From positions 1 through 64,000 of the IMG/VR virus record IMGVR_UViG_3300042894_003945: DNA of 64,000 bases; one strand, 5' to 3'. How positions within the stretch are numbered: the stretch's first letter is position 1; each line of letters begins with the position of its first letter. The translations under genes were made by a program, and so were the position numbers. The DNA comes from a virus. The notes beneath the pieces were generated by a model. It saw only the letters and a list, made by a program, of their open reading frames with translations. It did not search any database and was not told the DNA's origin. This document shows positions 9,014-29,239 of this stretch, piece after piece.

Positions 9014-9018
9014 AACTA

Positions 9019-10458: not shown

Positions 10459-10474
10459 TAAATTTTTTTAAGGG

Positions 10475-10675
10475 TTAAAGACTTCCGCTTGTTGCTAATT
10501 GATTGTAAGTCAACATTTTAACTTTAAAATCAGGATCCGTCAGATATAAATGTATTGATCTATTTACAAACTTCTGAAGAGATAACCCTGTCCTTGCACT
10601 TTCTATTTTAAAATTTTCCGACAAGTCTTTGTGTATTTTTACACTTGTTAATTTTAATCTGTCTTGATAAGCCAT
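10475..10675 (-). CDS. Small putative ribbon-helix-helix DNA-binding protein
   Basis: LTSVKI strand followed by two helices (DLSENFKIES, SLQKFVNRSIHLYL); heads the glycosylation operon. Confidence 0.55.
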   Translation of the reverse strand: MAYQDRLKLTSVKIHKDLSENFKIESARTGLSLQKFVNRSIHLYLTDPDFKVKMLTYNQLATSGSL

Positions 10676-10699
10676 AGTAACTAATTTATATATTTCATA

Positions 10700-10707
10700 T
10701 ATAAATA
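10700..10707 (-). promoter_or_regulatory. Putative phage late promoter TATTTATA
   Basis: Same motif recurs upstream of many minus-strand operon starts. Confidence 0.55.
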
Positions 10708-10737
10708 TATACAGATTGATAAAAAGAATCTACTTAG

Positions 10738-14091: not shown

Positions 14092-16398
14092 TTAGTGACC
14101 ATCTCTCAAATTGTGTGCCAAAGCTGGCGGTGCTACTAACTCTAAAGAAAGTCTAGTAGTGTTTTCCATTCTATCTTGAACAATTTTAGAAGCTTCCTCT
14201 GCTGCGTTTTCTTCTACCTCCATAACTAATTGGTCATGGATCTGTGCTACTACTTGTCCTTTTATTCCTTTTCTTTTAAATTCTCTGTTTATTTCAATAG
14301 CTGCACGATTTACAATAGAGGCCGCTAGACTTTGAATTTGATAGTTCATTCCGTTATTAAGACCATTCTTATAATCTCTAACCATATTCAAAACAGTGTC
14401 TTTATCTAATTGCTCTTCTAGCTTTCTTTGAAATTTAAACTCTAATAGTTTGTCTCCAAACTTCTTGTAAAGATAAGAAACTTTTGGTAAATGACGAACT
14501 CTTCCTACTTGTGTTTTTATATAACCATATTTTTTTACAAACTCTTTAGAAGTCTCCATCCATTTTTTTAGATTAGGAAATCCATTAAGATATCCGTCTA
14601 TAAGTTTTTCCGCTTCTTCGGTAGACACTTCTATGCTTTTACCTAGAGCATAAGCGCCCATTCCATAAGGAATACCTAAAGAGTATGCTTTAGCTTTCTG
14701 CCTTACATTATTCGCCATCTTCTTCAAGTAATTAGGAGCTTTCTTATCTGGAGAGTATTGTTCTAGCTTTTCAGTTTTTATGGCAATGGTAGAGTAGAAA
14801 TCCCAACCATTACGAAATATGTCCTTTAATCCCTCATCATCAGCTACGTGAGAGAATACTTTAGGTTCAAGGGATTCGTAGTCGCAGTCTATGAATACTG
14901 TTCCCGGTTTGCAAACAAAGAACGCACGTATCATATTATTATACTTAAGCACTATTGGATCATCTTCCCCTTCTTCTTTGGGTCTAGGGAGCTGTTGTGC
15001 ATCGGATCCATATCTACCTGATACTGTAGCGTGCTGTTTGTAGTAAAAATAATATAGCCCGTCTTCCACTTTATCTAAAAATCTATCCATATAAGTAGAC
15101 TTTATTTTAAGAAGTCTATTGTATATTCTTAAATTTTTAGCCCACTCATGCTTTTCAGATATAGATTGTATAAAATCATCATCAAACTTATCTTTACCTT
15201 TATCAGTAGCAGATAAGGGTTTAAATCCTAATACTCCAAAAGCAATGCTACCCAAGTGATCTTTTGATTGTATATTAAAAAAATCCCCTTCTTGACTTTC
15301 TTTCCACAATCCCACACTAATTTTTACAACAATCTTTTCATCTAATAGATCTAGATTTCCAGTTAACAAGTAATTCTTTACATCAGAATCTGGTAGTTCA
15401 TTTATAAGTTTAGAAGTTAAAGAGTACTTGCCAGACTTTTCTGAAATAGGTAGCGGGAGGTTGTAGTATTCTGTTAGCTTTTGAGCGTAAGTTCCTTTAT
15501 TACTAGGAGGGTATTTTTCTAAGGCTTTATCTACAACCCACTCCTTAACGGCAGGATTTTTCAGAAGATCCGCTATAACAAGTTTTTTGTAAGTTTCTAA
15601 ATCTTTTATAATTTCCTCTCTAGACTTGTTCATCAAATCCACGTCTACCATTACTCCGTTGCTCTCCATAGGGATAGTAACTTCTTTATACAATGGCATT
15701 ACTTCATCCTCAAAGAAAAATTTCTCTAGACCTTCTTTTACAAGTTTCTGATAATAGTAGTTATATACTCTTAAAGTAAGATCGGTATCAGCACATGCAT
15801 ACTTAGAGAGAATTGGAAGATCTGCTTTCCATATTTCATAATTCTCTTTAGTTGTTGTGCCTCCATTAGATTTTATAGATTCTTTTAGTAAAACTTGCTC
15901 TTCGTTCGCTTCCTTTTCCATATCAAGCCCTAACTCAGATTGAATCGCTATGGCTATATCTTTCAAACCAAAGGATCCTCCAAACCCTTCCCCAGCACCT
16001 TCCTCAGATACTGTATGTACAAGTAGTATAGTATCAGCATGTATAGAAGGAGTTATATCTATATCATAGAAACATTTTACGAACCTAGAATCAAAAGATA
16101 AGTTGTGTCCTATTATTTTCTTGGTACACAATAGATTTATAACTTTCTTTGCTAGATCGTGACAACTCTCTCCATATATTTTACTGTCACTAAGCTCTCC
16201 ATTTTTATGTTCCATAGTAGGCATGTAATATCCTATACCAACCTCTGCTGATACTGATATGCCTATTATACTTCCTTTTCTGGGATTGAGAGATGTGGTT
16301 TCTGTGTCAAAAGCAATTATGTCATTTGCTTTTATATGACTCACCATTTCTCTTAAAGTGTCTGGGGTATCTACTGTTACGTATTTCTTTTCTTGCAT
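14092..16398 (-). CDS. polA: Family A DNA polymerase (3'-5' exonuclease + polymerase, no 5'-3' exonuclease domain)
   Basis: AFDTETT, GHNLSFD, YACAD exonuclease motifs; DYESLE (A), RQKAKAYSLGIPYG (B), QIHDQ (C). Confidence 0.95.
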   Translation of the reverse strand: MQEKKYVTVDTPDTLREMVSHIKANDIIAFDTETTSLNPRKGSIIGISVSAEVGIGYYMPTMEHKNGELSDSKIYGESCHDLAKKVINLLCTKKIIGHNLSFDSRFVKCFYDIDITPSIHADTILLVHTVSEEGAGEGFGGSFGLKDIAIAIQSELGLDMEKEANEEQVLLKESIKSNGGTTTKENYEIWKADLPILSKYACADTDLTLRVYNYYYQKLVKEGLEKFFFEDEVMPLYKEVTIPMESNGVMVDVDLMNKSREEIIKDLETYKKLVIADLLKNPAVKEWVVDKALEKYPPSNKGTYAQKLTEYYNLPLPISEKSGKYSLTSKLINELPDSDVKNYLLTGNLDLLDEKIVVKISVGLWKESQEGDFFNIQSKDHLGSIAFGVLGFKPLSATDKGKDKFDDDFIQSISEKHEWAKNLRIYNRLLKIKSTYMDRFLDKVEDGLYYFYYKQHATVSGRYGSDAQQLPRPKEEGEDDPIVLKYNNMIRAFFVCKPGTVFIDCDYESLEPKVFSHVADDEGLKDIFRNGWDFYSTIAIKTEKLEQYSPDKKAPNYLKKMANNVRQKAKAYSLGIPYGMGAYALGKSIEVSTEEAEKLIDGYLNGFPNLKKWMETSKEFVKKYGYIKTQVGRVRHLPKVSYLYKKFGDKLLEFKFQRKLEEQLDKDTVLNMVRDYKNGLNNGMNYQIQSLAASIVNRAAIEINREFKRKGIKGQVVAQIHDQLVMEVEENAAEEASKIVQDRMENTTRLSLELVAPPALAHNLRDGH

Positions 16399-17359: not shown

Positions 17360-17514
17360 ATTTTATTTCCTTTTTCCCATTTAGGATCGTAAGGACACTC
17401 TTTACATTTATTACCACAACAATGTCCTCTTTGTTTTAAATAGTGAGCGGTGAGTACTATGTACCCAGTCCGCTCATCTATGTAAAAGTCTATATTTTCT
17501 TGAAGTTTCGACAT
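17341..17514 (-). CDS. Small Cys-rich protein (DUF5522-like); start placed at ATG 17514 overlapping the RNR stop
   Basis: GYIVLTAHYLKQRGHCCGNKCKECPY motif; TAATG coupling with nrdJ. Confidence 0.75.
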   Translation of the reverse strand: MSKLQENIDFYIDERTGYIVLTAHYLKQRGHCCGNKCKECPYDPKWEKGNKILLEGK

Positions 17515-19364
17515 TATTCTACAGCACAGGCACCACCAGCGCATGCTGCTATAGCACCAAAGTTAACAGTATCATCTTCTTCTAAAACATTGGTAAGGTC
17601 TATAGAAGTAAGGTGTTTGATCTTCTCTTCATACTGCTCTTTTGTTATATCTTCAAAAGGAGCTTGAACATATGTTCCTCCCCAATAAGGAAGCACAGAA
17701 AGTCCGTTATAATGAGCCCTGTTTTCCCACATCCAATCTCCTACTGTTTCCCACTCATCTTGTTTAATAGATACTGTAGCAGAAACGTTATGGCTGTTAT
17801 ACCCGTTTCTATGACCACTCTTAATCCAGTTTGTAGAGAAGTGTTTAACTCTTTCAAGAAGTTCTATAGGAGTTTCAGTCCTCAATAAAGATCCTGCCGG
17901 TGCTTTAATTGGAATCCTTACACACAAAGTATCGTGAGATCTCAAAGCATCGTCTTCACAAATCTCAGGATGGTTAGCCATTAGATACTTTGCAATATCT
18001 TCTGACTTATTAAAACGAACAGTTCTTAGATAGTAATCATTATGCCAAGCATGGATACCAGAAGCGGTTCCTAATACACAAGATGTAGTTCCTGAAGGTT
18101 TAATACAAGTAACACGGGCTGCCTTGTTGATCCCAATCTCCTCAGCATAGAAAGCATTTGCTTCTTTTGCCACATCTGCTGCTTTTTTCAGATCGTACTT
18201 TAAGATCTCACCGCTACCAATACCTGTCATGCCAATACCTAAAAGCGCATCCTTTTCTGTAGTCTTCTGCCAAATAGAACGTAGATAGTGGAAATCTGTA
18301 TAAGATGCCTGTAACGTTCCAAAGAAAGCTGCCACTTTAACACGTTGCATAAGATCTTCTTCGTCTACTACATCTGATACATTAACCTCGCAAAGATTAC
18401 AGAACTGATAAGGACGCAGTGCAATCTCACAACATGGATTAGTTCCCCACTCAATATTCTTTGTCCAATAGAATCCAGGCTCTCCTGAATTACTAAGTTC
18501 TATCTTTTTCCACAAAGCTCTAAACTCTTCTTCAGAGATCTGGCCTCTTTCTAATACTGCTGAGTTATTAGCTCTACCACGTTGTTCATTTAGTTCCCAC
18601 CAATTACCGAATTTACATGTAAGCATATCTTCATCATCATGGCTAAACAAAGCAATCATAGCAGCTCTTCTAATACCACCAGACAGTACGCTATTAGCAA
18701 TGTGGCACATGATATCATGAACTTCTAAAGTAGTAAGCTTTTCCCCATTCTGTTTGCGTTCAAGCATTGCTTCTATGTGGAACAAACAAGTCTTAAGTGG
18801 TTCAGGACCAGGTGCCTTACCTCCAGCTGTGATAAGTCTAGCTCCTTTAGGACGAATGTCTCTAAAGTCGAAAAGAGGTTTAGGACCTTTTCCGAAATAA
18901 GACTTCATAAGAACTTTAACTGCGTCAGCCCATCCTATGATGCTATCTTGAATCAAAAATCTTTTTTGTTTTGTAGGCTTAATTATTTCAGGAAGTTTCT
19001 CAACGTGTTGAAACTGAACCGAATATCCTACACCTGTACCTCCCAACAAAAGAAACATAGCTTCAGAAAAACAATGTACACTATCCATAGGTAGATAGCA
19101 ACAATTATAAATTCTAGCATTATTTACTTCTGCTGCGTTACCTGAAAATTGTAAAGCTCTCATTGAAGGTAGAACTTTTTTCTGTCTTATAAACTCCGCA
19201 TTTTCAGCTATTTCCTTTTTCAATTTAGGAAATTTTTGCATCATCATTACTTCATATCTGGTAACGATTTCATCCCACGTTTCTCTCCTCTGTAGCTCTG
19301 GCATATACTTTGAATACTTAGAGAAAATAGTGACTTGACTTAAGATTTCTGATCCTAATTCCAT
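17514..19364 (-). CDS. nrdJ: Class II (adenosylcobalamin-dependent) ribonucleotide reductase
   Basis: PSMR, YNC, GGTGVG, GGIRRAA, TNPCCEI, CNL, CIKPSGT, C-terminal CAGGAC; no beta-subunit gene nearby. Confidence 0.92.
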   Translation of the reverse strand: MELGSEILSQVTIFSKYSKYMPELQRRETWDEIVTRYEVMMMQKFPKLKKEIAENAEFIRQKKVLPSMRALQFSGNAAEVNNARIYNCCYLPMDSVHCFSEAMFLLLGGTGVGYSVQFQHVEKLPEIIKPTKQKRFLIQDSIIGWADAVKVLMKSYFGKGPKPLFDFRDIRPKGARLITAGGKAPGPEPLKTCLFHIEAMLERKQNGEKLTTLEVHDIMCHIANSVLSGGIRRAAMIALFSHDDEDMLTCKFGNWWELNEQRGRANNSAVLERGQISEEEFRALWKKIELSNSGEPGFYWTKNIEWGTNPCCEIALRPYQFCNLCEVNVSDVVDEEDLMQRVKVAAFFGTLQASYTDFHYLRSIWQKTTEKDALLGIGMTGIGSGEILKYDLKKAADVAKEANAFYAEEIGINKAARVTCIKPSGTTSCVLGTASGIHAWHNDYYLRTVRFNKSEDIAKYLMANHPEICEDDALRSHDTLCVRIPIKAPAGSLLRTETPIELLERVKHFSTNWIKSGHRNGYNSHNVSATVSIKQDEWETVGDWMWENRAHYNGLSVLPYWGGTYVQAPFEDITKEQYEEKIKHLTSIDLTNVLEEDDTVNFGAIAACAGGACAVE

Positions 19365-19475: not shown

Positions 19476-20828
19476 TTAATTTCTAGTAAACTTTTTCTTA
19501 AGCATTGATATATCATCTGAACTAAAATCCCCCTTTCCTCCATCTTCTTGATTCTCAGAGTCTTCGTCATAAAGGTCTTCTGATATATCTATAAATCCTT
19601 TGTTTAGGTCTATTTTGGCAGAGTAGGTCATACCGTCTGGTCCTAATCTAGACTTCATTATATGGAATCTTCCAGTCCCATTTATCTTATCTTTCCTTTT
19701 TCTGGAAAGGGATACGCTAAAGTCTGCTATCATCATTTTTTGAAAGCTGCCTGCCACCTTGTCTCCTTCTATAATCTCATCCTTAGCTCCCATCCTATTG
19801 ATCTGGGAAGGGCATACAAAAGGTATCTTTAAATCCTTAGCCATACCTTTTAGGTCTGTATAGATGTCATCTAACTCCTCTTTGGCTTCTTTACGGGTTC
19901 TTCTAGGCTTTAAAAGATCTGGGTAGTCTATTATTATCAGATCTGGAATGAAGTCGTTATTGGCCTCTAATTGCTTTAGGTGGGATTCTATAGTGCCTAG
20001 AGAAGCCCTTCCTGGGGAATACTCCTTGATCACTATCTTTCCCTTAAGACTTTTAACTGCCGCTTCTACTTCTTTCCTGTGGTGCTTCAGCATCTTAACT
20101 TCTATCCCAGTTAAAATAGAGTCTATCTTCTTTCCCACATATCTCTCATCTAGCTCCAAAGTATAGTACACCACATTGTACCCTGTTTTCAAGCAGTGGG
20201 TAGCAATGTTACAAACCACAGTAGATTTTCCTATTCCGGGAGGCGCAAAGAGAAGCATTAGGTTACTACCGCCTACTCCTCCATCCGTAATGTCATTAAA
20301 CACTTTCCAAGGGAATGGTATCTTTTTATCCTCCTCTTCCCTAAACCGACTCTCCACATCCTTGTCGTATTCGTGTCCTATGTTTTTTTCATTACCTGCT
20401 TTCAATGCTTCATCGATCATCTTTCTAATTCCTTCAAACTCTCCTGTTTTAAGAAGATCTACTGAGGATAGTAAAGCGTCTCTAAGCTTTTGATTTTTAC
20501 AGAAGTTGAAAAACTCTTCCTTTACATAATCTACATCATCTTGAGTAGCAGTGTAAGCTTGTTTAAGTTCTTCTTTAATTGATACTTGCAGTACTTCATT
20601 CTCTTCTTTCTTTAGTTCTATTTTAAGAACCTCCATAGTAGGGTAGGTATGATACTTAGAATAATAATCTAGTATTATTCCTATGATCCACTTATGTGCA
20701 GGAGACTCAAAATAATCAGCTGTAATTACATCTGCTATGTTTTGAAGGAACGCCTTATCATTTAATAAGGAGTACAAAACTTTTATTTGAAATTGATGTC
20801 CGTACTGATTTAGTTTGTTTGCTGTCAT
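19476..20828 (-). CDS. Replicative DNA helicase (DnaB/T4 gp41-like)
   Basis: Walker A APPGIGKS, YYTLEL, IIIDYPD, SQINR, KSRLG. Confidence 0.92.
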   Translation of the reverse strand: MTANKLNQYGHQFQIKVLYSLLNDKAFLQNIADVITADYFESPAHKWIIGIILDYYSKYHTYPTMEVLKIELKKEENEVLQVSIKEELKQAYTATQDDVDYVKEEFFNFCKNQKLRDALLSSVDLLKTGEFEGIRKMIDEALKAGNEKNIGHEYDKDVESRFREEEDKKIPFPWKVFNDITDGGVGGSNLMLLFAPPGIGKSTVVCNIATHCLKTGYNVVYYTLELDERYVGKKIDSILTGIEVKMLKHHRKEVEAAVKSLKGKIVIKEYSPGRASLGTIESHLKQLEANNDFIPDLIIIDYPDLLKPRRTRKEAKEELDDIYTDLKGMAKDLKIPFVCPSQINRMGAKDEIIEGDKVAGSFQKMMIADFSVSLSRKRKDKINGTGRFHIMKSRLGPDGMTYSAKIDLNKGFIDISEDLYDEDSENQEDGGKGDFSSDDISMLKKKFTRN

Positions 20829-20834: not shown

Positions 20835-21872
20835 TTAATAGTTGTTTAACGATGAAAATATACTAACCCAAGATTCCACATTTGGAATCGCTCCTCCCAT
20901 TCTATCGTGATGATACAACTTTATAAAATCAAATTTTTTAAGAAGAGGTGTTTTATTATGGTATTGATTTGTAATCTCCTCCTTTAAAATATCGGATATA
21001 TTCGGATTCTTTATATCCATTATTTTATAAAACACTTCAAGTTGTTTTTTAACATTCAGAACTCTCTGATATACAACTGAATTCTTAGGAGGACTTTCAC
21101 AAATTTGATAAACATCTTCTAAAGTTTTAGGGTCTTCTTTAGACATGAACTCAAAAAGCTTTATAACATTTTTCTCACCAGCCCCATGCACTCCAGGTAT
21201 GTTGTCAGAAGTATCTCCTACTAATGTTTTGTAGATTGTAAAATTATTAGGATGAACTCCAAAATGTTCTACAACACTATTTACATCATATATCTTTTTT
21301 TTAGTAGGACTATACACACTAACACGATCATTTACAAGTTGCATAAAGTCATTGTCAGATGACATTATAAAAACTTTAGAATCATCATACTCATCGTGTA
21401 TTTTTACAGATAAGTTTCCAATCACATCATCAGCTTCTAACTTATCAAAAGACATTAAAGTTATAGGCAGACATTCCAAATAAGGAATTAGCCTAGATAT
21501 TTGATTGTATTTTGAATCGTCTTCATCTGACTTGTTATTAAACGACTTGTAGTTCATTATCCTACCTGTATCTCTATTCGATTTATATTCGTTATATAGA
21601 TATTTCCTGTTTACCGACCCGCCTTCACCGTCAAAGACGATTACTATGCGAGTCGGATTTAACAGTTTAGTGGCATGTCCAAGAGACTTTAAAAAACCAA
21701 CTAATCCTCCAATATCATTTCCCAACATGTTCACTCTATCAACAACAGCAAAGCTCCTAAGAAATGTGTTCATTCCATCTACTATAAGAACTCTGCTGTT
21801 GTGGTGGAGGTTTTTTGGTTTCTCATCTTTATTAATTCTAGAAAATATGTCTAAAAGTCTTTCCTTATTCAT
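20835..21872 (-). CDS. 5'-3' exonuclease / T4 RNase H-like flap nuclease
   Basis: LIVDGMN, VFDG, YKSNR, EADDVI, SSDNDF.QL, GDTSDNIPGV. Confidence 0.93.
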   Translation of the reverse strand: MNKERLLDIFSRINKDEKPKNLHHNSRVLIVDGMNTFLRSFAVVDRVNMLGNDIGGLVGFLKSLGHATKLLNPTRIVIVFDGEGGSVNRKYLYNEYKSNRDTGRIMNYKSFNNKSDEDDSKYNQISRLIPYLECLPITLMSFDKLEADDVIGNLSVKIHDEYDDSKVFIMSSDNDFMQLVNDRVSVYSPTKKKIYDVNSVVEHFGVHPNNFTIYKTLVGDTSDNIPGVHGAGEKNVIKLFEFMSKEDPKTLEDVYQICESPPKNSVVYQRVLNVKKQLEVFYKIMDIKNPNISDILKEEITNQYHNKTPLLKKFDFIKLYHHDRMGGAIPNVESWVSIFSSLNNY

Positions 21873-22938
21873 CTCCGGAATTATTATCGACTACACTTCC
21901 ATTGTCTTCTTCTTCGATTACATCGTAGTCGTCACTTCCAAGAATCTTCAACCACTCTGCTGAATGTGCTTTCTTGTATGCGTCAATATACTTCTTGTCA
22001 TCAATGATGAAGCCGTGTGGAGTAGCGATAATCTTTCCAGTAGTAGTAACCCCTGTAATGTGGTTTTTGTCTACAGATATCTTAGTCCTTTTAGCAAACT
22101 CAACATCTTTACCGTTCTTAGTAGCTTTAATCTTGTTTGTACCTGCTCCGGTAGCATTACCGAATGTTACTACAAGCGTAGAGTCTAGGAACATTGTGTT
22201 TCCTCCTTTGTTTTTCAACTTAGGGAGTTCTCCATAAACAGAAGGCTTTTCTACCCACACCTTATTTACAATGATAAGGGTGTTGGTATACTGTGAGCTT
22301 TCTTTCCTAGATCTTACAATCCTTTGGTTTACAAAGTTGCCAAACTGAACAGACATTGCTCCTGCGTTCCATTCGTTGTTGTTCTTATTAGATTCAACAG
22401 ACATTTTACATGGAATAGATCCTACAGAGTCCCAAAGGAATACAATATCCATTGGAAGGTTTCCTTTCTCTTGTTCATCTAAAAGATCCATGATGAATCC
22501 GGCAACATCTTCAATAGTTGATAGATGATCTCTATCGACATAAATAAAGTTACCTCCGTAAGAAATTTCACCAGTTTCTTTATTTACTGTTTCATTTACT
22601 TCGAATCCCATGATCTTAGCATGATGCCAATCCCATTTCATCTCAGTTATAATAAACACTGGAAGCTTGCCCATTCTCTGGACATTCATAGCTGCTTCAA
22701 TCATTGCCGTAGTCTTTCCTGTATCGCTATGGCCTCTAAATGTAATTACGTGACCATGTGGAATTCCTGGTAAACTAATTGCTTCTTGAAATGCTTCTGA
22801 AAGTGGGATCCACTCTTGTTTTTTAAACCCTACGTTTTCAGTTAGGTTCTTTGATTTCTTAAAGTTCTCTAAACTAAAGGACGAGTTTTTCTGAAGGGCA
22901 CTTGCTACAGCACCCTTAATGTTCTTATTTTCTGCCAT
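21865..22938 (-). CDS. RecA/UvsX-like recombinase
   Basis: Walker A GHSDTGKT, FLWDSVG, IIVNK, KGG, KNH motifs. Confidence 0.88.
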   Translation of the reverse strand: MAENKNIKGAVASALQKNSSFSLENFKKSKNLTENVGFKKQEWIPLSEAFQEAISLPGIPHGHVITFRGHSDTGKTTAMIEAAMNVQRMGKLPVFIITEMKWDWHHAKIMGFEVNETVNKETGEISYGGNFIYVDRDHLSTIEDVAGFIMDLLDEQEKGNLPMDIVFLWDSVGSIPCKMSVESNKNNNEWNAGAMSVQFGNFVNQRIVRSRKESSQYTNTLIIVNKVWVEKPSVYGELPKLKNKGGNTMFLDSTLVVTFGNATGAGTNKIKATKNGKDVEFAKRTKISVDKNHITGVTTTGKIIATPHGFIIDDKKYIDAYKKAHSAEWLKILGSDDYDVIEEEDNGSVVDNNSGDE

Positions 22939-22948
22939 ATGTTACAAT

Positions 22949-23791
22949 TTAATTTTCTTCTCCGAACAAATCATCAAACTTAGAAGCAACGCTGCTCTTA
23001 TTTTCTGTATAATCAGAAGCAGGTTTGTATGGTCCATCAAAAGGAGGTTCCTCGGTAACAGACTCTTCTACGGCAGGGGTTGATACTTCAGTGGGTTCTT
23101 CTTGAGGGTTGATATAATCATGAAGCATCTTTTTGATTTCATCATAACTATACTTTTTATAAATCTCAGTAATTTCTTTCTGTGATTCTAGTACTTTCTT
23201 AACTAGGTCTGCATCTTCAGAAATAGGAGAGATATTTCTTTTTGGGGTTACGTTTACAGCAATATAGTTTACATCTCTCTTACCAATTTTAATTACATCA
23301 TTGTAACCTTCAACAGTAAGATCGGTACCGCTAGTAACATCAGCAATATCTCCAAAGTCATCATCAGCCATAATGCTGAGAAGCTTTTCGTATGTGGTCT
23401 TGTTGAACTCCCACAATCTTGCTCCCAAACCTTCTTCTCCTCTTACTAGCACTTGTGCAAAGTATTTAGTTCTTGGTTTTAGTTTTCTAGCAAGTTCTTT
23501 GCTGCTTTCTGTGTTCTCATCGTAAAGTTCTCTAACTAGTTGAACTACGGGGTCTTTCTCTCCGAAGTTCTCTAAAGAGAATACATTCTTTTTAAAAATG
23601 TTGTACTGATGAAAAGTTACTTCTGAAAATGGAAAGTCTTTATTTGTCTTTCTAGGGAGAATCCTGACAACTTGCTTTCCTAACTTTGGTTTCCAGAAAA
23701 TTGTGGTGTAATCAATTTTTTCAAAACCACCACCTGAATTTTTTGACTGAAGCTTACTAAGCCTCTCTTTGATGAGATCAATCTTGGACAT
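22949..23791 (-). CDS. Single-stranded DNA-binding protein (gp32-like)
   Basis: FWKP..GKQVVRILP, DPV, D.GDI.D...G.D, acidic FDDLF C-terminus; next to recombinase. Confidence 0.8.
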   Translation of the reverse strand: MSKIDLIKERLSKLQSKNSGGGFEKIDYTTIFWKPKLGKQVVRILPRKTNKDFPFSEVTFHQYNIFKKNVFSLENFGEKDPVVQLVRELYDENTESSKELARKLKPRTKYFAQVLVRGEEGLGARLWEFNKTTYEKLLSIMADDDFGDIADVTSGTDLTVEGYNDVIKIGKRDVNYIAVNVTPKRNISPISEDADLVKKVLESQKEITEIYKKYSYDEIKKMLHDYINPQEEPTEVSTPAVEESVTEEPPFDGPYKPASDYTENKSSVASKFDDLFGEEN

Positions 23792-23814
23792 AACTTGATT
23801 TTTTAAGTGAAAAA

Positions 23815-23845
23815 CAAAAATAGTGAATATTCGGATAATTCCAAA
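23815..23845 (-). promoter_or_regulatory. Bacteroidota sigma-A-type promoter (TTTG-N19-TATTTTTG) for the SSB/recombination operon
   Basis: -33 at 23842-23845 and -7 at 23815-23822. Confidence 0.65.
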
Positions 23846-23853
23846 TTTATTTT

Positions 23854-24294
23854 CTAGGACTTCTTTTCCACATTTATGATATCGTGGATTTTAGTCTTAA
23901 GCTGTACGAAGCTATTGTTCTGGGTTAACAGGATACTATTTTCATAGTCTTTCCAGTTAACTTTGAAGTTGTTATCCCTTACGCCGTTGTTTAAAGACTC
24001 TACAAGCTTATTGAGGGAGTTTATAGTGTATAATACGTTACACTCCTTACGGCGGTGCATCAATATCGTATTAGGAAGGATATTGTTCTTATTTATATTG
24101 TCGCTGTCAATGTTATAAGTACAAACATACTCGTTCTCATTATCTGTCTCTAATACAAATATTTTAGAGTAAATGACTTCATACCTACTTTTTATGTCGG
24201 TTATAGTCATTTGAAGGTCCTCCTTCTTTGTAAAAGTACAGAATAGCTTATTCAAGTAGTCGTATGTTAAATCAAAAAACGTATTATTTTTCAT
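23854..24294 (-). CDS. Phage hypothetical protein
   Basis: NKLFCTF, TYNI, HRRKE.N.LYTIN.LN pattern; plausible composition. Confidence 0.7.
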   Translation of the reverse strand: MKNNTFFDLTYDYLNKLFCTFTKKEDLQMTITDIKSRYEVIYSKIFVLETDNENEYVCTYNIDSDNINKNNILPNTILMHRRKECNVLYTINSLNKLVESLNNGVRDNNFKVNWKDYENSILLTQNNSFVQLKTKIHDIINVEKKS

Positions 24295-24322
24295 ATATAA
24301 ATAGTAAAAATAAGTTCAAAAA

Positions 24323-25660
24323 TTAGATATTTTTCATTTCTTGGTAGTTATATCCGAACTTACAGGAGGTTTTGTACCCGTCTTGTTCTAGAATGTCCCT
24401 GATCTCTCCTATGGTCTTCTTGCCGTCTTTTTTACTATAATCAAAAAGGAAAGAGTCATAGTTATATAACACCAATTTAGTTACTTTATTTTCTAAATAT
24501 TTTAGTAAATCGTTTATAATTAAAATATTCCTTTCTGTTTCGTAGTTCTGCAAAACATAGGGTAATATCTGTGTCTTCGAAGTTATACCTTTTATTGGAG
24601 ATTTCGATAAAAAACTTTCTATAAATCCTTGTTTTTTATAAGTTTGCCACAAAAACTTCTTAAATTCTTTAACCTTTGCGAAAAAAGGGATATCTTCTAG
24701 CTCCTCTGATATGGAGTCTGTATATAGAAGTTTAAAAGTTAGGCCCTTGCTTTCCGCATATTGTTCAGCAGTTACCGTCTCAGTACCGTAGTAAAACTTT
24801 GCTAAGTGGGTATGTATATCTTCCTCCTCAAACTTATATCCGATATGATACGCTAATATACGAATGTGATACGAAGAGTAATCAAACTCTACAAGAACGT
24901 CTTTAGATGGAACAAAAGAAGATCTACTGCCATCTTCCTTGTTCATAGCACTAAAATTGATGCCGTTAAACGCATTTGAAGGCCTGCCAGTACTGGTAAA
25001 TAAGTTGTATTGAGTGTATATTTTGTCTGATTTAATCGACATTAAAGGGTTTTTTGGGGTATAATGACTGATAAATCGGTCATTATTTATGTTTATACCC
25101 TCTGCTTCTATATTACTAAAAATCGTAGGAGCTAAGCATCCATACAGTTTATAGTACTTAGCTTTAAACCAAGATGCTTCAAACTTTATACTGGCTACTA
25201 ATCTTTCATATTTTTCAAAATGTTTGCAGATAGGTATAATTTTATTAATATCAGGTCTGCCTTCGTACTTCTGATAGAAAAATCTATGGGCTACTGTGTT
25301 ATAGTCTGTCTCTTCTATGTAATCTCCTGTTTGTAAATACTTGGCTGTTTTTACACAATATAAATCGCACTCTCTCTTTAAATAATGCCTAAGTCTTTTT
25401 CCATCTATTGCGTATATATTTCCTACTTTGCCTTGTATAAAATCAAATACTTGGTTTTTATCTAGGCTAAAAGCTTCTGTGTGGTCTATAGAAAGTATAA
25501 ATCCCATTCTAGATCTGAATGGTTTAATGTATACTAGGGACGGCTCTGATATTTTGGGGTGGTAGTTATCGTTTGTAGATATTACGTCTACAAAACAATT
25601 TGTAAAATCGTACTGTGAAAACTTTTGAAACTGTTCTTCCGTTTCTATAATGTAATACAC
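24323..25660 (-). CDS. Degenerate family A polymerase-like protein (second PolA paralogue)
   Basis: TSTGRPS, EFDYSSYHIRILA (A), DIH, SKGLTFKLLY (B), LQ..E, YNYDSFLFD (C); GTG start. Confidence 0.82.
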   Translation of the reverse strand: MYYIIETEEQFQKFSQYDFTNCFVDVISTNDNYHPKISEPSLVYIKPFRSRMGFILSIDHTEAFSLDKNQVFDFIQGKVGNIYAIDGKRLRHYLKRECDLYCVKTAKYLQTGDYIEETDYNTVAHRFFYQKYEGRPDINKIIPICKHFEKYERLVASIKFEASWFKAKYYKLYGCLAPTIFSNIEAEGININNDRFISHYTPKNPLMSIKSDKIYTQYNLFTSTGRPSNAFNGINFSAMNKEDGSRSSFVPSKDVLVEFDYSSYHIRILAYHIGYKFEEEDIHTHLAKFYYGTETVTAEQYAESKGLTFKLLYTDSISEELEDIPFFAKVKEFKKFLWQTYKKQGFIESFLSKSPIKGITSKTQILPYVLQNYETERNILIINDLLKYLENKVTKLVLYNYDSFLFDYSKKDGKKTIGEIRDILEQDGYKTSCKFGYNYQEMKNI

Positions 25661-25675
25661 GACATAACCTTTTTA

Positions 25676-25707
25676 CAAATATAGACTACTTTGCGTACTG
25701 TGCCAAA
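25676..25707 (-). promoter_or_regulatory. Bacteroidota sigma-A-type promoter (TTTG-N20-TATATTTG)
   Basis: -33 at 25704-25707 and -7 at 25676-25683, at the boundary between structural and replication modules. Confidence 0.65.
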
Positions 25708-26201
25708 TTTGTAAAATATTTTTTTACTTCTTTTATTGTTTTTTCAACTTCATCTAAAGTCTTTTGATTCTCATTGGCAATCCCAGGAATTCCTTCAGGA
25801 GTTGTATATAAAGGGCCTGTTAATTTCCAGACAAATGATTTTGTATTATAAAGAGGATCTTTAGAAGCTCTGTTAAATTCGGATTCAGATACTTCTAATA
25901 TATTATCCAAACCTCCGTTCACTCTTTTTATAACGTATCTAGTAAAAAACCCTTTTTCATAGTCAGTATCTGTAGGTTCAGAATAGTAAAAATTATAGGA
26001 GTCTTTTTTGCTAGAAGTATTGTTTGTTTGTAATGAGTATATTAATTCTTGTGTATCAGATTGATACTCTTTACCAGAAAAAAATTTACCGTCATTAGTA
26101 GAATAATAAAATCCTTTATAAAATTTTAAAGTTCTTCTTATTAAGAACTCCCCTCCAGATGTGTAATCTACTTTTAATATTTCTGACTTTGGATAGTACA
26201 T
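25686..26201 (-). CDS. Phage protein, probably baseplate-associated
   Basis: YTSGGEF..Y.G.Y, PT..DY..GF..RY, WKLTGP; last gene of the tail operon. Confidence 0.6.
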   Translation of the reverse strand: MYYPKSEILKVDYTSGGEFLIRRTLKFYKGFYYSTNDGKFFSGKEYQSDTQELIYSLQTNNTSSKKDSYNFYYSEPTDTDYEKGFFTRYVIKRVNGGLDNILEVSESEFNRASKDPLYNTKSFVWKLTGPLYTTPEGIPGIANENQKTLDEVEKTIKEVKKYFTNLAQYAK

Positions 26202-26206
26202 GTAGT

Positions 26207-29200
26207 TTATTGCTTATCTGTAAAATATGGATAGCCTGTTGCTAAAGGTGTAGATAGTATGTATCTACCAGTGATATTGTCTATTGCGTTCTCAATATTT
26301 ATTAAATTAAAAGTAGTAGATGCTATAGCTCCAAGGTATACCCCAGTAAACGTAGCATTTAACATAGCTTGACCAGTAACAGTACCGGCTGATAAAGGGT
26401 TTTTTGCAATTAAAGCCAGATAATCTAAAACTTTATATCCTGTATCAAAAACTCTAGTATAATCAGGAGGAGTAGCATGTTGCTCATAACCAGATCTTAC
26501 TTTAGTCATTTCAGATTGAAATATATTCTTTATGTCTGAATCTTTCATGTCTATATAATATGACATGTTTACTATTATATTCTCTAATATACCATTTTTA
26601 GAAATATCAGTAACTCTAGATTGTGTGGTGGTAGTTGTTTGATTAACAGCTGCTTGCCCCTCTCTAGTAGTCCCTGTAACTCTATTTATTCTAGTTTCTG
26701 TAATTTTTGGATACAGCCTTTTATACGTGCTTCGAAACTCAGTCAACAGATCTCCATATGTTATCTCAGACCCTCCACTCTCTTGAACCGCCGCTCTAGA
26801 ATATAATGCTCTAGGTCTCCCAGATTTATCTTTTTTAAAATCTAGCTCCCCCTCCACATCTTTTATAAAAATATTTTCTCTTAGAACATCCATATATAGA
26901 GCTGCCAGTATTTTATAGTATCTGATAGATCTTAAGGTGTCTCCTATATTTTTTCTTGATTGTTCTAGTAAGTCTCTTAAAAATTGGGAAGACCTTTCTA
27001 AAGATCTCAATTGTTTCTCTTGTTGATCTAATATACAAATCTGAGATCCTAAAGTTGTTTTCCAACCGTTAGTTAATATTTCATTATTTATTTTAGTAAC
27101 AATAAATCCTATAGATTTTTGTTTATAATCTTTAGGAAGTACATTTTTATCTACGGTAAAGATCTCACCTATAGTTAAACCAGAAATGCCATCTAAAGTT
27201 AGCTCTACTGATATGGGTATCACGGCTTTGTAATCAGTTGCGCAATCTAATTCAACTAACAAAGAATTTAGATATGCGTTCATTGTAGCTAAATTACCAT
27301 TATTAAAAACAGATATGTTACTATTATCAAGTACGTAATCTCTAACAAATCTAATTAATACTAGTATTTGGTTTAGTAAACTTCTTTTTGATTCTTCTTC
27401 AGATACTAAAAGATCAGTGGCTAAATTTGTTGTCTCTTTAAAAAGTCTATCCACTAGGCCTTCATTCAAATAATTGTAAGTGGAAGTCTGTAAAGATGCC
27501 ACATTCTGCCTACTTTGAGCAGCTACTGCTATCATAGTAGCTTGTGAAGGGAATATTTTAGAATTTATTTTGTGAGACCTTACTATACTGCTATTTCCTA
27601 AAATATTTACTTTAAATTTAGAAGACACACTAGATTCCGAAGGCAGCTCTGTATAATGTTTATCAATTATGCAAATCTTATTATCTGTAACAAACTTATC
27701 AAAATCATTTATAGAGCCTAAAGAAAAAGATATTTCCGATAACAATTTGGATATGTAAGTGCCAACATAGACATATCCTTGACCAGATATTGCTAATTCT
27801 TTGTATAAGGAAATTATTTTACCTATGTTAATATATAAATTTCCTATTATTCCCAAATTAGTATCAGAGTATAGATACTCTTTAAACTGGGCGCCTATTT
27901 CGCTAATCGGATCTTCTATATTATAAACGGATGGGATAAAACCAACATTATCATTTTTGTCTTTGAATATAGTAGCTTTACTGTTTCGTATAAGTACTGT
28001 ATTTGGGTTTATAGATATAGAATTAAAAGATGCTTGACATAGTCCATTAGAAAAGCTCCCAGCTCTTAAAGGACCTGATGGTATTTCTATGTTTATTAGT
28101 TTTTGACTCTTTTCCGAAAAAAGATTTTTAAAACTGTTTAATATTTGCACTAAATATGCAAATTGAATATAATAGTTGTATCTGTCATCTAAAGGAGGCT
28201 CATCTGATACCGGTATAGGGTTTAGTACAGCGCTGAGTTTTTTTGTTGTGTATATATTTCTATCTACATAAGGCTCGTCTTCTGGCTTAATATCAGCATC
28301 TATAAAAGATATAAAACTGTTCTTTTTTAAGTTTCTATTATTAGTATTGCTAAGCTTGCAATATCCATCAAATAATAATTCAAACTGGCTTTTTATTTCA
28401 GAATTTTCATTTGTATTTTGATCTTCTCCACTTACTGTCCCAGATATAGTGTCGTTCATTCTTATGGTATCAATAACATCTCCTATACTCATCAAAACAG
28501 TGGTACATTCGTAAGACCCGTTAGGCATTAATTCGTACTCAAAATTTCTTATAGATCCTAAAACCCCGTCATAATTTCCAGAATACTTATGTCTAAGTTT
28601 TTGTAAACTATCATATATACCTTCTTGTGTTATACTCTCGTTAAAACAATCTATGGTATTAAAAGGTGTATTTTTAATAGAAGAGGCACTATAATCTGTA
28701 GTCAGTATTTTAGAATTTGTTTTACTATCATGAGAGTCTCCATTATCACTAGTGTCTAAGTACATTGACCATCCCCACTCCAAAAGAACTTTGTATCCCG
28801 GCCTTAAAAAAAGAATACTGAGTTCTTCAAGCTGCGTTACATCCCATGCATAAAATTTTACAGTAGCCTCTGTCAAGGATCCATAAGCTCCTAAACTTCT
28901 AGTAGTCATGCTAGTTATACCAGGCATAGGCCTTATACCATATTGAGTACTGCTTATATCTCCTCCATACGAAGCCCCTCTTCCTCCTATACCGGACCTT
29001 AACTTTGCTGTATTTGATTCGGTATTAAAATCGTAAAGAGTTCCTCCTTGCAATATATACTTCTTTGCTAAATTAGAACTTTCTTGATAATTTACAAAAG
29101 AAGTCATTCTTATCCATGGAGTTTTGGAAGATACGTATTTTGCAAGCTCTACAGTCCTTTCTACTTTACTTAGAAGATTTTGTCTAGCTTTTATCTGCCT

Positions 29201-29239
29201 TACTACAAATGGTTTAAAAGTACTTTTAAATATTGACAT
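26207..29239 (-). CDS. Large baseplate hub/tail-associated protein
   Basis: RPMPGI, LRPGY.VLLEWGW, LTLDGISGL.IG..F motifs; follows the LysM/wedge gene. Confidence 0.65.
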   Translation of the reverse strand: MSIFKSTFKPFVVRQIKARQNLLSKVERTVELAKYVSSKTPWIRMTSFVNYQESSNLAKKYILQGGTLYDFNTESNTAKLRSGIGGRGASYGGDISSTQYGIRPMPGITSMTTRSLGAYGSLTEATVKFYAWDVTQLEELSILFLRPGYKVLLEWGWSMYLDTSDNGDSHDSKTNSKILTTDYSASSIKNTPFNTIDCFNESITQEGIYDSLQKLRHKYSGNYDGVLGSIRNFEYELMPNGSYECTTVLMSIGDVIDTIRMNDTISGTVSGEDQNTNENSEIKSQFELLFDGYCKLSNTNNRNLKKNSFISFIDADIKPEDEPYVDRNIYTTKKLSAVLNPIPVSDEPPLDDRYNYYIQFAYLVQILNSFKNLFSEKSQKLINIEIPSGPLRAGSFSNGLCQASFNSISINPNTVLIRNSKATIFKDKNDNVGFIPSVYNIEDPISEIGAQFKEYLYSDTNLGIIGNLYINIGKIISLYKELAISGQGYVYVGTYISKLLSEISFSLGSINDFDKFVTDNKICIIDKHYTELPSESSVSSKFKVNILGNSSIVRSHKINSKIFPSQATMIAVAAQSRQNVASLQTSTYNYLNEGLVDRLFKETTNLATDLLVSEEESKRSLLNQILVLIRFVRDYVLDNSNISVFNNGNLATMNAYLNSLLVELDCATDYKAVIPISVELTLDGISGLTIGEIFTVDKNVLPKDYKQKSIGFIVTKINNEILTNGWKTTLGSQICILDQQEKQLRSLERSSQFLRDLLEQSRKNIGDTLRSIRYYKILAALYMDVLRENIFIKDVEGELDFKKDKSGRPRALYSRAAVQESGGSEITYGDLLTEFRSTYKRLYPKITETRINRVTGTTREGQAAVNQTTTTTQSRVTDISKNGILENIIVNMSYYIDMKDSDIKNIFQSEMTKVRSGYEQHATPPDYTRVFDTGYKVLDYLALIAKNPLSAGTVTGQAMLNATFTGVYLGAIASTTFNLINIENAIDNITGRYILSTPLATGYPYFTDKQ

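What the first reader, a model, noticed from the sequence alone, without database searches (positions are those of the whole stretch)
24323..25660. Second, compact PolA paralogue with an altered steric gate and a T7-RNAP-like motif C
Seen: besides a complete PolA (14092..16398), this 445-aa protein keeps both catalytic Asp residues. Motif A reads DYSSYHIR (canonical DYSQIELR), motif B reads YAESKGLTFKLLY (first Arg replaced by Tyr), and motif C reads NYDSF (canonical VHDE). No clear exonuclease DxE motif is visible. Established: the motif A Glu (E710 in Klenow) is the steric gate excluding rNTPs, and the related T7 RNA polymerase has HDSF in motif C. Inference: this may synthesise RNA or primers, handle modified nucleotides, or be a non-catalytic partner. 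It has its own host-type promoter, and no primase is seen in this window.
Basis: partly seen in the sequence, partly recalled or inferred. Interest (0 to 1): 0.72.

Follow-up and report, generated by a model that had tools for sequence, protein, structure and literature searches.

The report
Thumbless second phage DNA polymerase (divPolA1)
This lake-water phage gene encodes a miniature, proofreading-dead relative of DNA polymerase I from the already published "divPolA1" family; its odd active-site residues are real and conserved, but nobody has measured what the enzyme does.

Summary
ORF 24323..25660(-) encodes a 445-aa family A polymerase paralogue reading DYSSYHIR, YAESKGLTFKLLY and YNYDSF. 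A complete PolA lies at 14092..16398.

It is not new. [quoted passage not shown] 2024, PMC11348598). That paper describes it as having a conserved palm, a truncated thumb and a dead exonuclease. This scan had already found the family on other DNA (e1-6122657).

My model (pLDDT 96.6) superposes on Pol I large fragments over its whole length (Z 27-28).

What I add, from 137 diverse members:
- The catalytic Asp residues and Lys are invariant.
- His at the steric gate is present in 135/137, Tyr-Asp in 135/137, and Ser/Ala after it in 135/137.
- The R754-equivalent Arg is kept in only 8/137.

The case for a primase role is weak. A DnaG-type primase is present in the same record and in 5/5 related genomes. 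Histidine is also a proven rNTP-excluding gate in PolD.

A conserved 146-aa protein follows the gene in 78/78 loci that have downstream DNA.

The most likely reading is an accessory, distributive DNA polymerase of the replication/recombination operon. Its sugar selectivity is untested.

The parts
24323..25660 (-). divPolA1 gene: 445-aa compact family A polymerase paralogue (GTG start)
   Evidence: ORF. Pfam DNA_pol_A 36.4 bits. 35% identity over 98% of its length to immuto_3-5A gene 1. AF2 pLDDT 96.6. VIA Z 27-28 against Pol I large fragments.
25256..25660 (-). N-terminal vestigial 3'-5' exonuclease-like domain (about residues 1-135), no DxE motif
   Evidence: The model aligns from residue 1 with Bst large fragment residue 300 onward. 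The N-terminus reads YYIIETEEQ. Yutin et al. report all three exonuclease Asp residues replaced. The domain boundary is approximate and inferred from the DSSP output.
24986..25096 (-). Thumb remnant (residues 189-225): 38 residues where Klenow has about 124
   Evidence: The spacing from G188 to R226 has a median of 38 (range 20-40) in 137 members. In the Klenow chain the same two landmarks are G220 and R344, as counted from the alignment. DSSP shows no long helices here.
24983..24991 (-). TGR motif (R226 = Klenow R668)
   Evidence: R226 is present in 137/137. Alignment to Klenow TATGRLSS. Coordinates checked.
24860..24883 (-). Motif A DYSSYHIR: catalytic D260, with His265 at the steric-gate position (Klenow E710)
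   Evidence: D260 137/137; H265 135/137 (Gln in 2); Y264 113/137. Alignment. Coordinates.
24722..24760 (-). Motif B / O-helix YAESKGLTFKLLY: K305, F309 and Y313 kept; Tyr301 in place of R754
   Evidence: K305 137/137; F309 131/137; Y313 134/137. Position 301 is Tyr in 97, Ile in 16 and Arg in 8 of 137.
24449..24466 (-). Motif C YNYDSF: catalytic D402, with Tyr for H881 and Ser for E883
   Evidence: D402 137/137; Y401 135/137; S403 105/137 plus Ala in 30; F404 89/137. Profile alignment to Klenow QVHDELVF.
25676..25707 (-). Promoter-like motif TTTG-N20-TATATTTG, 16 nt upstream of the start
   Evidence: It is conserved only in a minority of relatives: 4 of 76 loci.
23854..24294 (-). Conserved 146-aa alpha/beta protein ('small146') immediately downstream; candidate accessory factor
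   Evidence: A homologue directly follows divPolA1 in 78 of 78 IMG/VR loci that have downstream DNA, with a median gap of 32 nt. The same holds in immuto (51% identity), Mel-JY01 and LR756508. AF2 pLDDT 86.3. No convincing fold match.
22949..23791 (-). gp32-like ssDNA-binding protein, preceded by a second promoter-like motif at 23815-23845
   Evidence: Pfam gp32 E 3.3e-19. Promoter-like motif. Syntenic in 76 of 80 loci.
21865..22938 (-). UvsX/RecA-like recombinase
   Evidence: Pfam RecA, phrog_97.
20835..21872 (-). Stand-alone 5'-3' exonuclease (FEN)
   Evidence: Pfam 5_3_exonuc_N E 4.1e-30.
19476..20828 (-). DnaB-like replicative helicase
   Evidence: Pfam DnaB_C E 7.9e-20.
14092..16398 (-). 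'Regular' full-length PolA (exo+ and pol, with thumb and a Glu gate)
   Evidence: 56% identical to the regular PolA of immuto.

Best explanation
The gene encodes a member of the published divPolA1 family. It is a miniaturised Pol I 'large fragment' with an inactive exonuclease-like N-domain, almost no thumb and shortened fingers, but a complete and strongly conserved polymerase active site. [quoted passage not shown] It is expressed with the replication/recombination operon that it heads: small146, gp32-type SSB, UvsX recombinase, FEN 5'-3' exonuclease and DnaB helicase. Shown here: homology, fold, conservation of catalytic residues, synteny, and coexistence with a regular polymerase and a DnaG-type primase. 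Inferred: that it performs short-patch DNA synthesis (gap filling after primer removal by the neighbouring FEN, or extension of UvsX/gp32 recombination intermediates), while the exchangeable full-length polymerase does the bulk synthesis. The family-specific His (for E710), Tyr-Asp-Ser (for His-Asp-Glu) and Tyr (for R754) reshape the nucleotide pocket. Whether they change sugar or base selectivity is unknown.
For: Family membership: 35.2% identity over 98% of the query to immuto_3-5A gene 1, E 3e-78. The gene order after it is the same as in immuto. Yutin et al. 2024 name exactly that phage as the type example and describe a conserved palm, truncated thumb and dead exonuclease (sections 13 and 14 and found passages read).
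Fold: AF2 pLDDT 96.6 and pTM 0.93. The top Foldseek rows are Pol I large fragments, with TMq 0.72-0.77. VIA gives Z 27.9, rmsd 3.4 A and 410 aligned residues (6vdd_A), and Z 27.5 with 416 aligned (4dqs_A), covering model residues 1-444.
Active site under selection in 137 members at 29-80% identity to the query: R226, D260, K305, E374 and D402 are each present in 137/137. Q371 is 136, H265 135, Y401 135, Y313 134 and F309 131 of 137.
Thumb: 38 residues against about 124 in Klenow.
Context: in the 80 IMG/VR loci, small146 is found in 78 and SSB in 76, followed by UvsX, FEN and DnaB. The same module is found in a Microcystis phage and in a 484-kb uncultured phage.
A separate primase exists in the same record and in 5 of 5 related records. 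A complete regular PolA also exists.
His is a known rNTP-excluding gate in other polymerase families.
Against: There is no biochemical datum for any member: the name divPolA1 occurs only in the 2024 paper and its preprint in the library searched. Three residues that I recall as important in Klenow are changed. The R754 equivalent is Arg in only 8 of 137. The E883 equivalent is Ser/Ala in 135 of 137. The E710 equivalent is His in 135 of 137. The enzyme may therefore be slow or have another substrate preference. A thumbless polymerase may bind primer-template poorly on its own, and no sliding-clamp family was detected in the 80%-complete record. The constant presence of divPolA1 while the 'regular' polymerase swaps between families A, B and C (Yutin et al.) fits a more central role than an accessory one. 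The specific gap-filling or recombination role is inference from neighbours only.
Confidence: 0.6

Rival explanations
1. Relaxed or inverted sugar selectivity. In this reading the His gate, with Tyr313 and a Tyr-Asp-Ser motif C, lets the enzyme incorporate ribonucleotides or make primers or RNA. This could happen de novo, as in the PolA-derived CCPol-MP primase or the T7-type RNA polymerases.
For: The Glu that defines the PolA steric gate (position A2 in Czernecki et al., passages read) is replaced in 137 of 137 members: His in 135 and Gln in 2. The acidic residue after the motif C Asp is Ser/Ala in 135/137. I recall that T7-type RNA polymerases are similar there, but this was not checked. There is a precedent for a truncated PolA that primes when bound to a small adjacent protein: CCPol-MP (PMC7581432 passages; PMC10061031 abstract). 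divPolA1 always has a small conserved neighbour (78/78). The segment equivalent to Klenow 684-692 is 2 residues shorter and forms only a 4-residue helix in the model. Bebel et al. link a shorter helix at this place to de novo initiation.
Against: A DnaG-type primase is encoded in the same record and in 5/5 related records. His acts as a steric gate that excludes rNTPs in PolD, where H931A abolishes discrimination, and it is the modelled gate of Pol III alpha. His is not a small residue that opens the pocket. F309 (= F762) is kept in 131/137. CCPol keeps E710 and F762 and primes with dNTPs, so priming does not require a changed gate. The small146 model is an alpha/beta sandwich by DSSP, not an obvious OB barrel like MP.
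Confidence: 0.15
2. divPolA1 is the constant catalytic core of the replisome in this phage group. In this reading accessory proteins such as small146 and gp32 make it processive, and the swappable 'regular' polymerase has another job such as repair or a modified-DNA pathway.
For: [quoted passage not shown] In this window the regular PolA sits beside a Cpn60 chaperonin, a dUTPase, a glycosyltransferase and a PD-(D/E)XK nuclease. divPolA1 heads the SSB-recombinase-FEN-helicase block in all loci. small146 is more conserved than divPolA1 itself: 45-57% identity where divPolA1 has 33-40%.
Against: There is no proofreading domain and almost no thumb for a genome of about 160 kb. The regular PolA has intact exonuclease and polymerase motifs and is better conserved (56% identity to immuto, against 35%). 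No clamp was found. No fused or longer forms were found.
Confidence: 0.15
3. The protein is a polymerase specialised for modified nucleotides or damaged templates. Its reshaped pocket would suit a chemically modified phage genome or lesion bypass.
For: Exonuclease-dead, distributive PolA relatives are usually repair or bypass enzymes; APEX is discussed this way in Czernecki et al.. Nucleotide-metabolism and glycosyltransferase genes are present in the window. Yutin et al. mention nucleotide modification genes in these genomes.
Against: I obtained no evidence that this phage's DNA is modified. The modification-type genes sit next to the regular PolA, not next to divPolA1. The changed residues face the sugar and triphosphate rather than the base. 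That last point rests on recalled knowledge of Klenow residues.
Confidence: 0.07
4. The protein is a non-catalytic, decaying or purely structural paralogue.
For: Several canonical residues are replaced (E710, R754, H881, E883). The Pfam score is only marginal, and only 61 of 106 members reach E <= 1 for DNA_pol_A.
Against: Both metal-binding Asp residues, the motif B Lys and the TGR Arg are invariant in 137/137 members spanning 29-80% identity to the query. There are 522 clusters at 50% identity with E <= 1e-30, nearly all of 410-470 aa. The model is very confident.
Confidence: 0.03

Closest known systems
[quoted passage not shown]
   Same: Direct homologue: 35% identity over 98% of the query, E 3e-78. 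It has the same size and the same position at the head of the SSB-recombinase-FEN-helicase block. It has the same predicted architecture, with a conserved palm, a truncated thumb and a dead exonuclease. It coexists with a regular DNAP, and a chaperonin sits next to the regular DNAP.
   Different: Nothing of substance differs; this is a new member from a lake-water phage. The paper reports 14 phages. The paper's main text has no occurrence of 'steric', 'ribonucleotide' or 'histidine'. The family-wide His gate, Tyr-Asp-Ser, the loss of the R754 Arg and the universal 146-aa neighbour are therefore not discussed there. Figures and supplements were not visible to me.
Pol I large fragments (Klenow, Bst LF, Klentaq, M. 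smegmatis Pol1 POL domain)
   Same: Same overall fold from N- to C-terminus: Z 27-28, rmsd 3.4 A, 410-416 of 445 residues aligned. The TGR motif and motifs A, B and C are aligned. Like Bst, Taq and M. smegmatis Pol1, the exonuclease-like domain is inactive; for those three enzymes this is recalled.
   Different: It is about 135-160 residues shorter. The thumb hairpin is deleted (38 against about 124 residues) and the fingers are shorter. It has His for E710, Tyr for R754, Tyr for H881 and Ser for E883. Identity is only 15-17%.
CCPol-MP primase of SCCmec and related PolA-SSB pairs (Bebel et al. 2020, PMC7581432; Rice 2023, PMC10061031)
   Same: Both are truncated PolAs from mobile elements encoded next to a small conserved protein within a replication operon. 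Both have a shortened helix at the Klenow 684-692 position.
   Different: CCPol lacks most of the exonuclease domain but keeps E710 and F762, and its partner MP is an OB-fold ssDNA binder. divPolA1 keeps a whole vestigial exonuclease domain and has a His gate. Its neighbour models as an alpha/beta fold with no convincing match. No sequence relationship to CCPol was tested. Priming by divPolA1 is untested.
T7-type single-subunit RNA polymerases
   Same: They belong to the same Klenow-fold superfamily, with a TGR-type motif (Czernecki et al.). They have no Glu at the gate and a Ser after the motif C Asp; both points are recalled and were not checked here.
   Different: The protein is far smaller (445 aa). 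It has no N-terminal promoter-binding domain or specificity loop that could fit in this length. Its best structural and sequence matches are DNA polymerases.
divPolA2 (same paper) and APEX (Czernecki et al. 2023, PMC10201439)
   Same: These are other second, exonuclease-dead PolA paralogues that coexist with a main polymerase. divPolA2 also lacks a normal thumb. APEX is thought to act in repair.
   Different: divPolA2 has an unrelated N-terminal globular domain, a variable gene context and RNA polymerase structural hits. APEX is actinobacterial and full-sized. Neither was compared to this protein by sequence here.

Membership tests
divPolA1 (Yutin et al. 2024) | Homology to the type example, immuto_3-5A gene 1 | tested here: met
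   tblastn gives 35.2% identity over 98% coverage, E 3e-78. The record annotates it 'DNA polymerase family A'.
divPolA1 (Yutin et al. 2024) | Palm domain with the main catalytic residues conserved | tested here: met
   D260, D402, K305 and R226 are each present in 137/137.
divPolA1 (Yutin et al. 2024) | Truncated thumb | tested here: met
   38 residues between the G188 and R226 landmarks, against 124 in Klenow. There are no long helices in residues 200-244 of the model.
divPolA1 (Yutin et al. 2024) | 3'-5' exonuclease domain present but inactivated (three catalytic Asp residues replaced) | tested here: inconclusive
   An exonuclease-like N-domain aligns with Bst LF from residue 300. No DxE motif is present at the N-terminus. 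No exonuclease Pfam family appears among the families listed for 106 members.
divPolA1 (Yutin et al. 2024) | Encoded in addition to a 'regular' DNAP in a phage genome of about 155-190 kb | tested here: met
   The regular PolA is at 14092..16398. The record is 136,878 bases and estimated 80% complete. A tail sheath gene marks it as a myovirus.
divPolA1 (Yutin et al. 2024) | Conserved replication genes downstream | tested here: met
   small146, gp32-type SSB, UvsX, FEN and DnaB follow, as in immuto.
Family A DNA polymerase (canonical, 19 clusters of Czernecki et al. 2023) | TGR motif and motifs A, B and C, with two catalytic Asp residues and the motif B Lys/Tyr | tested here: met
   Pfam DNA_pol_A scores 36.4 bits against a cut-off of 34.3.
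Family A DNA polymerase (canonical, 19 clusters of Czernecki et al. 2023) | Glu at the steric-gate position A2 (Klenow E710) | tested here: not met
   His in 135/137 and Gln in 2/137. The regular PolA of the same phage has Glu.
Family A DNA polymerase (canonical, 19 clusters of Czernecki et al. 2023) | First Arg of motif B (Klenow R754) and His-Asp-Glu in motif C | tested here: not met
   Position 301 is Tyr in 97, Ile in 16 and Arg in 8 of 137. Motif C is Tyr-Asp-Ser/Ala in 135/137. That these residues are canonical is recalled. The regular PolA of this phage itself reads HDQ.
T7-type single-subunit RNA polymerase | Closest structural relatives are RNA polymerases; N-terminal promoter-binding domain and specificity loop | tested here: inconclusive
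   All rows shown by Foldseek and VIA are DNA polymerases, but a family that is not listed is not excluded. A 445-aa protein fully aligned to a Pol I large fragment leaves no room for the extra domains; this is inference.
T7-type single-subunit RNA polymerase | rNTP use and promoter-dependent de novo initiation | not testable with these tools
   This needs enzyme assays.
CCPol-MP type PolA primase | Small adjacent partner protein that binds the polymerase and ssDNA (OB fold) | tested here: inconclusive
   An adjacent conserved 146-aa protein exists in 78/78 loci. Its model is alpha/beta by DSSP. The best VIA match is Z 6.3 over 61 residues, and Foldseek finds nothing at E <= 0.001.
CCPol-MP type PolA primase | De novo DNA primer synthesis | not testable with these tools
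   This needs enzyme assays.

The most novel reading that the evidence does not exclude
divPolA1 and the 146-aa alpha/beta protein that always follows it form a two-subunit enzyme that is the invariant heart of replication in this widespread group of large phages. Its His / Tyr-Asp-Ser / Arg-less nucleotide pocket gives it a substrate range unlike any characterised PolA. That could mean ribonucleotide or 2'-modified nucleotide incorporation, or primer-independent initiation in the manner of CCPol-MP. This would be a natural intermediate between DNA polymerase I and the single-subunit RNA polymerases.
Probability: 0.12. Interest if true: 0.75.

Novelty: new member of a known kind. Interest (0 to 1): 0.35.

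Why it matters
divPolA1 is a large and entirely uncharacterised branch of one of the best-studied enzyme families. I find at least 522 clusters at 50% identity, against 14 phages in the paper that named it. It stays constant in a group of about 160-kb aquatic phages while their 'regular' polymerase is swapped between families A, B and C. Its role therefore bears on how these replisomes are built.

Three features make it a natural experiment on what a PolA needs for DNA binding and sugar selection:
- the family-wide replacement of the PolA steric-gate Glu by His;
- the loss of the motif B Arg;
- a missing thumb.

It could also be a compact scaffold for polymerase engineering. A cultivable host-phage pair exists (immuto on Flavobacterium sp. 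LMO8). For this scan the practical message is that the finding is real, already named in print and already met on other windows. It should not be scored as a discovery.

Tried and rejected
Complex prediction of divPolA1 (alignment A3) with small146 (alignment A4) gave no verdict: score 0.00, mark 0.32, controls not run. This is no evidence either way.

Fold of small146. Foldseek against PDB found nothing at E <= 0.001. The best VIA wide match was Z 6.3 over 61 residues, to a V-ATPase subunit domain, with ACT/RRM-like ferredoxin folds following. That is below the level that means more than a common arrangement. The ESM Atlas gave no usable hit. Pfam found nothing. PHROGs gave only phrog_6147, of unknown function, at E 0.0022.

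PHROGs matched no family to divPolA1 at E <= 0.01.

Fused or longer forms. None was found for small146 among proteins of 257-2000 aa or for divPolA1 among proteins of 780-2225 aa at E <= 1e-10. The tool itself rates this as weak evidence.

RNA polymerase likeness. No T7-type or mitochondrial RNA polymerase appears among the 50 Foldseek rows, the 50 VIA rows, or the 60 shown of 63 PDB sequences matched by the family profile at E <= 10. Absence from these lists does not exclude a relationship.

Other primase families in the record. There was no Zn_ribbon_DnaG hit and no Prim-Pol hit. AEP small-subunit and D5-type families were not searched.

Sliding clamps. There was no DNA_pol3_beta or DNA_PPF hit in the 80%-complete record.

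The sigma-70-type promoter scan was uninformative, with 16 sites against 14.9 expected. No terminator-like site follows small146 on the coding strand.

Expression. No RNA holder was listed among the 22 runs returned.

They may hold motif logos or neighbourhood tables that already show the His gate or the 146-aa neighbour.

I considered mirror-tree co-evolution of divPolA1 and small146. I rejected it because all genes of one operon share the phage phylogeny.
Full report
WHAT IS THERE. The window is part of a 136,878-base IMG/VR virus record estimated 80% complete. It has about 33% G+C, and nearly all genes are on the minus strand. It carries a tail sheath and collagen-like tail fibres, which marks it as a myovirus. 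ORF 24323..25660(-) begins with GTG and encodes 445 aa. Pfam DNA_pol_A barely passes its cut-off (36.4 against 34.3 bits) and covers only residues 198-316. PHROGs matches nothing. phmmer against PDB aligns the stretch to Klenow (E 2.1e-8). This places His265 at E710 and Tyr301 at R754, and keeps K758, F762 and Y766. The full-length PolA at 14092..16398(-) is canonical. It has an exo1 domain with DTET, motif A DYESLE with a Glu gate, motif B RQKAKAYSLGIPYG and motif C IHDQ, and its thumb region aligns.

IT IS A LARGE, CONSTRAINED FAMILY. The word-indexed search found 1660 proteins at E <= 0.001 among 4584 candidates. The best 120 were mostly 440-450 aa. The exhaustive search of cluster representatives found 1075 at E <= 0.001, 796 at <= 1e-10 and 522 at <= 1e-30. 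I aligned 137 rows: the window protein, 4 proteins, and 132 of the 150 listed. I dropped 18 fragments or split matches. Lengths are 413-471 aa and identity to the query is 29-80%.

Column counts are as follows:
- R226 (TGR), D260 (motif A), K305 (motif B), E374 and D402 (motif C) are each present in 137/137.
- Q371 is 136, H265 is 135 (Gln in 2), and Y401 is 135.
- Y313 is 134, F309 is 131, and Y264 is 113.
- S403 is 105, with Ala in another 30.
- Position 301 is Tyr in 97, Ile in 16 and Arg in 8.
- The His equivalent to Klenow H734 is His in 101 and Tyr in 35.

The unusual residues are therefore family characters under selection and not decay.

STRUCTURE. AlphaFold2 with this alignment gave pLDDT 96.6 and pTM 0.93. 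The best Foldseek matches are Bst and Klenow large fragments, with E about 5e-18 and TMq 0.72-0.77. All rows shown are family A DNA polymerases. VIA-align gives Z 27.9, rmsd 3.4 A and 410 aligned residues for M. smegmatis Pol1. It gives Z 27.5 with 416 aligned for Bst LF, spanning model residues 1-444 against Bst 300-876. The protein is thus a miniature 'large fragment' with an exonuclease-like N-domain followed by the polymerase domain.

The family profile aligns its positions 170-202 to Klenow-chain residues 202-234, and positions 196-432 to residues 312-585. Between the conserved Gly of the E..G motif and the TGR Arg there are 124 residues in Klenow but a median of 38 (range 20-40) in the family. 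The model has no long helix there. The thumb hairpin is therefore gone.

No DxE motif is present at the N-terminus. No exonuclease Pfam family appears among the families listed for 106 members, and DNA_pol_A itself is found in only 61 of those 106.

IT IS ALREADY PUBLISHED. The closest phage homologue is gene 1 of Flavobacterium phage vB_FspM_immuto (35.2% identity over 98% of the query, E 3e-78). It is followed by the same genes. A look-up in this scan's earlier findings (e1-6122657) pointed to Yutin et al. 2024 (PMC11348598). I read its sections 13 and 14 and found passages.

[quoted passage not shown] It reports a conserved replication-gene arrangement downstream, conserved palm catalytic residues, a truncated thumb and an inactivated 3'-5' exonuclease. 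[quoted passage not shown]

Its main text has no occurrence of 'steric', 'ribonucleotide' or 'histidine'. The name divPolA1 occurs only in that paper and its preprint in the library searched. Czernecki et al. 2023 (PMC10201439; outline and found passages) define 19 PolA clusters and call the gate position A2. divPolA1 is not among their clusters.

CONTEXT. In the window the order is: promoter-like motif, divPolA1, a 146-aa protein, a second promoter-like motif, gp32-type SSB, UvsX/RecA, FEN, DnaB. The best 80 loci were kept.

Of these 80 loci, 78 have a homologue of the 146-aa protein directly after divPolA1, with a median gap of 32 nt. Four loci have gaps of 519-599 nt. The two loci without it end 2 and 22 nt after the polymerase match. 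The SSB follows in 76 of 80.

The small protein is better conserved than the polymerase, at 45-57% identity where the polymerase has 33-40%. It is also present downstream in immuto (51%), Microcystis phage Mel-JY01 (38%) and a 484-kb uncultured phage (44%). Its model (pLDDT 86.3) is an alpha/beta fold with no convincing relative.

PRIMASE AND SUGAR SELECTIVITY. The same record encodes a 313-aa DnaG-type primase at about 102 kb, with Pfam DNAG_N at 31.6 bits and Toprim_2 at 24.6 bits. Homologues at 44-50% identity are present in 5 of 5 related large records, including one with terminal repeats, and including immuto, where it is annotated 'DNA primase, DnaG'.

A histidine at a gate position does not imply ribonucleotide use. 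In family D polymerases H931 is the steric gate, and H931A abolishes discrimination (PMC7708050, passages read). [quoted passage not shown]

A precedent for priming by a PolA does exist. CCPol with its small partner MP synthesises DNA primers de novo (PMC7581432 passages; PMC10061031 abstract). However, CCPol keeps E710 and F762, and MP is an OB-fold protein. One feature those authors link to initiation is a shorter helix at Klenow 684-692. This has a parallel here: the segment is 2 residues shorter, with a 4-residue helix in the model. That is suggestive only.

VERDICT. The identity is a new member of the known divPolA1 family. The most likely function is an active, non-proofreading, distributive DNA polymerase working within the replication/recombination operon (confidence 0.6). 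The specific task of gap filling with FEN or extension of recombination intermediates is inferred from neighbours only.

The rivals are:
- altered sugar selectivity or priming (0.15);
- being the constant replicase core with accessory subunits (0.15);
- a modified-nucleotide or bypass role (0.07);
- a non-catalytic protein (0.03).

Beyond the publication, I add four things: the quantified family-wide His gate, Tyr-Asp-Ser and loss of the motif B Arg; the much larger size of the family; the universal 146-aa neighbour; and the constant DnaG-type primase. None of these settles the activity, which needs the assays listed under next steps.

Noticed in passing
window 23854..24294 (-): A 146-aa protein of no known family follows divPolA1 in 78 of 78 related loci with downstream DNA. 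It is more conserved than the polymerase, with invariant K16, F18, T20, F21, Y38, E55, T59-Y60-N61, H80-R81 and K83 in 38 sequences. Its model is an alpha/beta fold without a convincing match. It sits between two promoter-like motifs together with divPolA1, so the two genes may form a bicistronic unit.
   Followed up: partly
window 25397..25561 (-), residues H34, H60, E62, D86, K88 of the polymerase: The 'dead' exonuclease-like domain carries its own near-invariant residues. H34 is present in 133/137, H60 in 136/137, Glu/Asp62 in 137/137 and K88 in 126/137. This looks like a conserved site for metal binding, a partner or DNA rather than a relic.
   Followed up: no
window 14092..16398 (-): The regular PolA has Leu at the Klenow F762 position (KAYSLGIPYG) and His-Asp-Gln instead of His-Asp-Glu in motif C. 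The acidic residue after the motif C Asp is therefore missing in both polymerases of this phage.
   Followed up: partly
G000:C1 about 101979-102920 (-), outside the window (L004 1414..2355): The DnaG-type primase (313 aa) matches DNAG_N and Toprim, but the record has no Zn_ribbon_DnaG hit. Its first 124 or so residues are unassigned. It may have a divergent zinc-binding domain or none.
   Followed up: no
window 12126..13781 (-) and 7742..11676: A Cpn60/GroEL-type chaperonin, a PD-(D/E)XK nuclease and a glycosyltransferase lie just past the end of the regular PolA gene, and a dUTPase and a ribonucleotide reductase-like protein (17514..19364) lie just before its start. This matches the remark of Yutin et al. 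that regular DNAPs of these phages sit with chaperonins and nucleotide metabolism or modification genes.
   Followed up: partly
window 50053..58413 (-) and 41572..44724 (-): Two giant ORFs (2786 and 1050 aa) match collagen-like tail-fibre PHROGs many times over. They coincide with G+C peaks of 0.41-0.49 in a genome of about 0.33. Long overlapping ORFs appear on both strands there, as expected for Gly-X-Y repeat coding.
   Followed up: partly
window 25686..29239 (-): The 171-aa and 1010-aa genes upstream of divPolA1 have no family match but are syntenic in most related loci, including distant ones. The polymerase therefore sits at a conserved junction between an unknown, possibly structural, block and the replication block.
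   Followed up: no
window 22900..26300: Near-identical DNA (half or more of the sampled words) is held by 17 of the 22 runs listed, all labelled lake-water, freshwater or plain metagenome. Leaving out 2 possible source samples, that is 15 runs in 13 coded studies.
   Followed up: no
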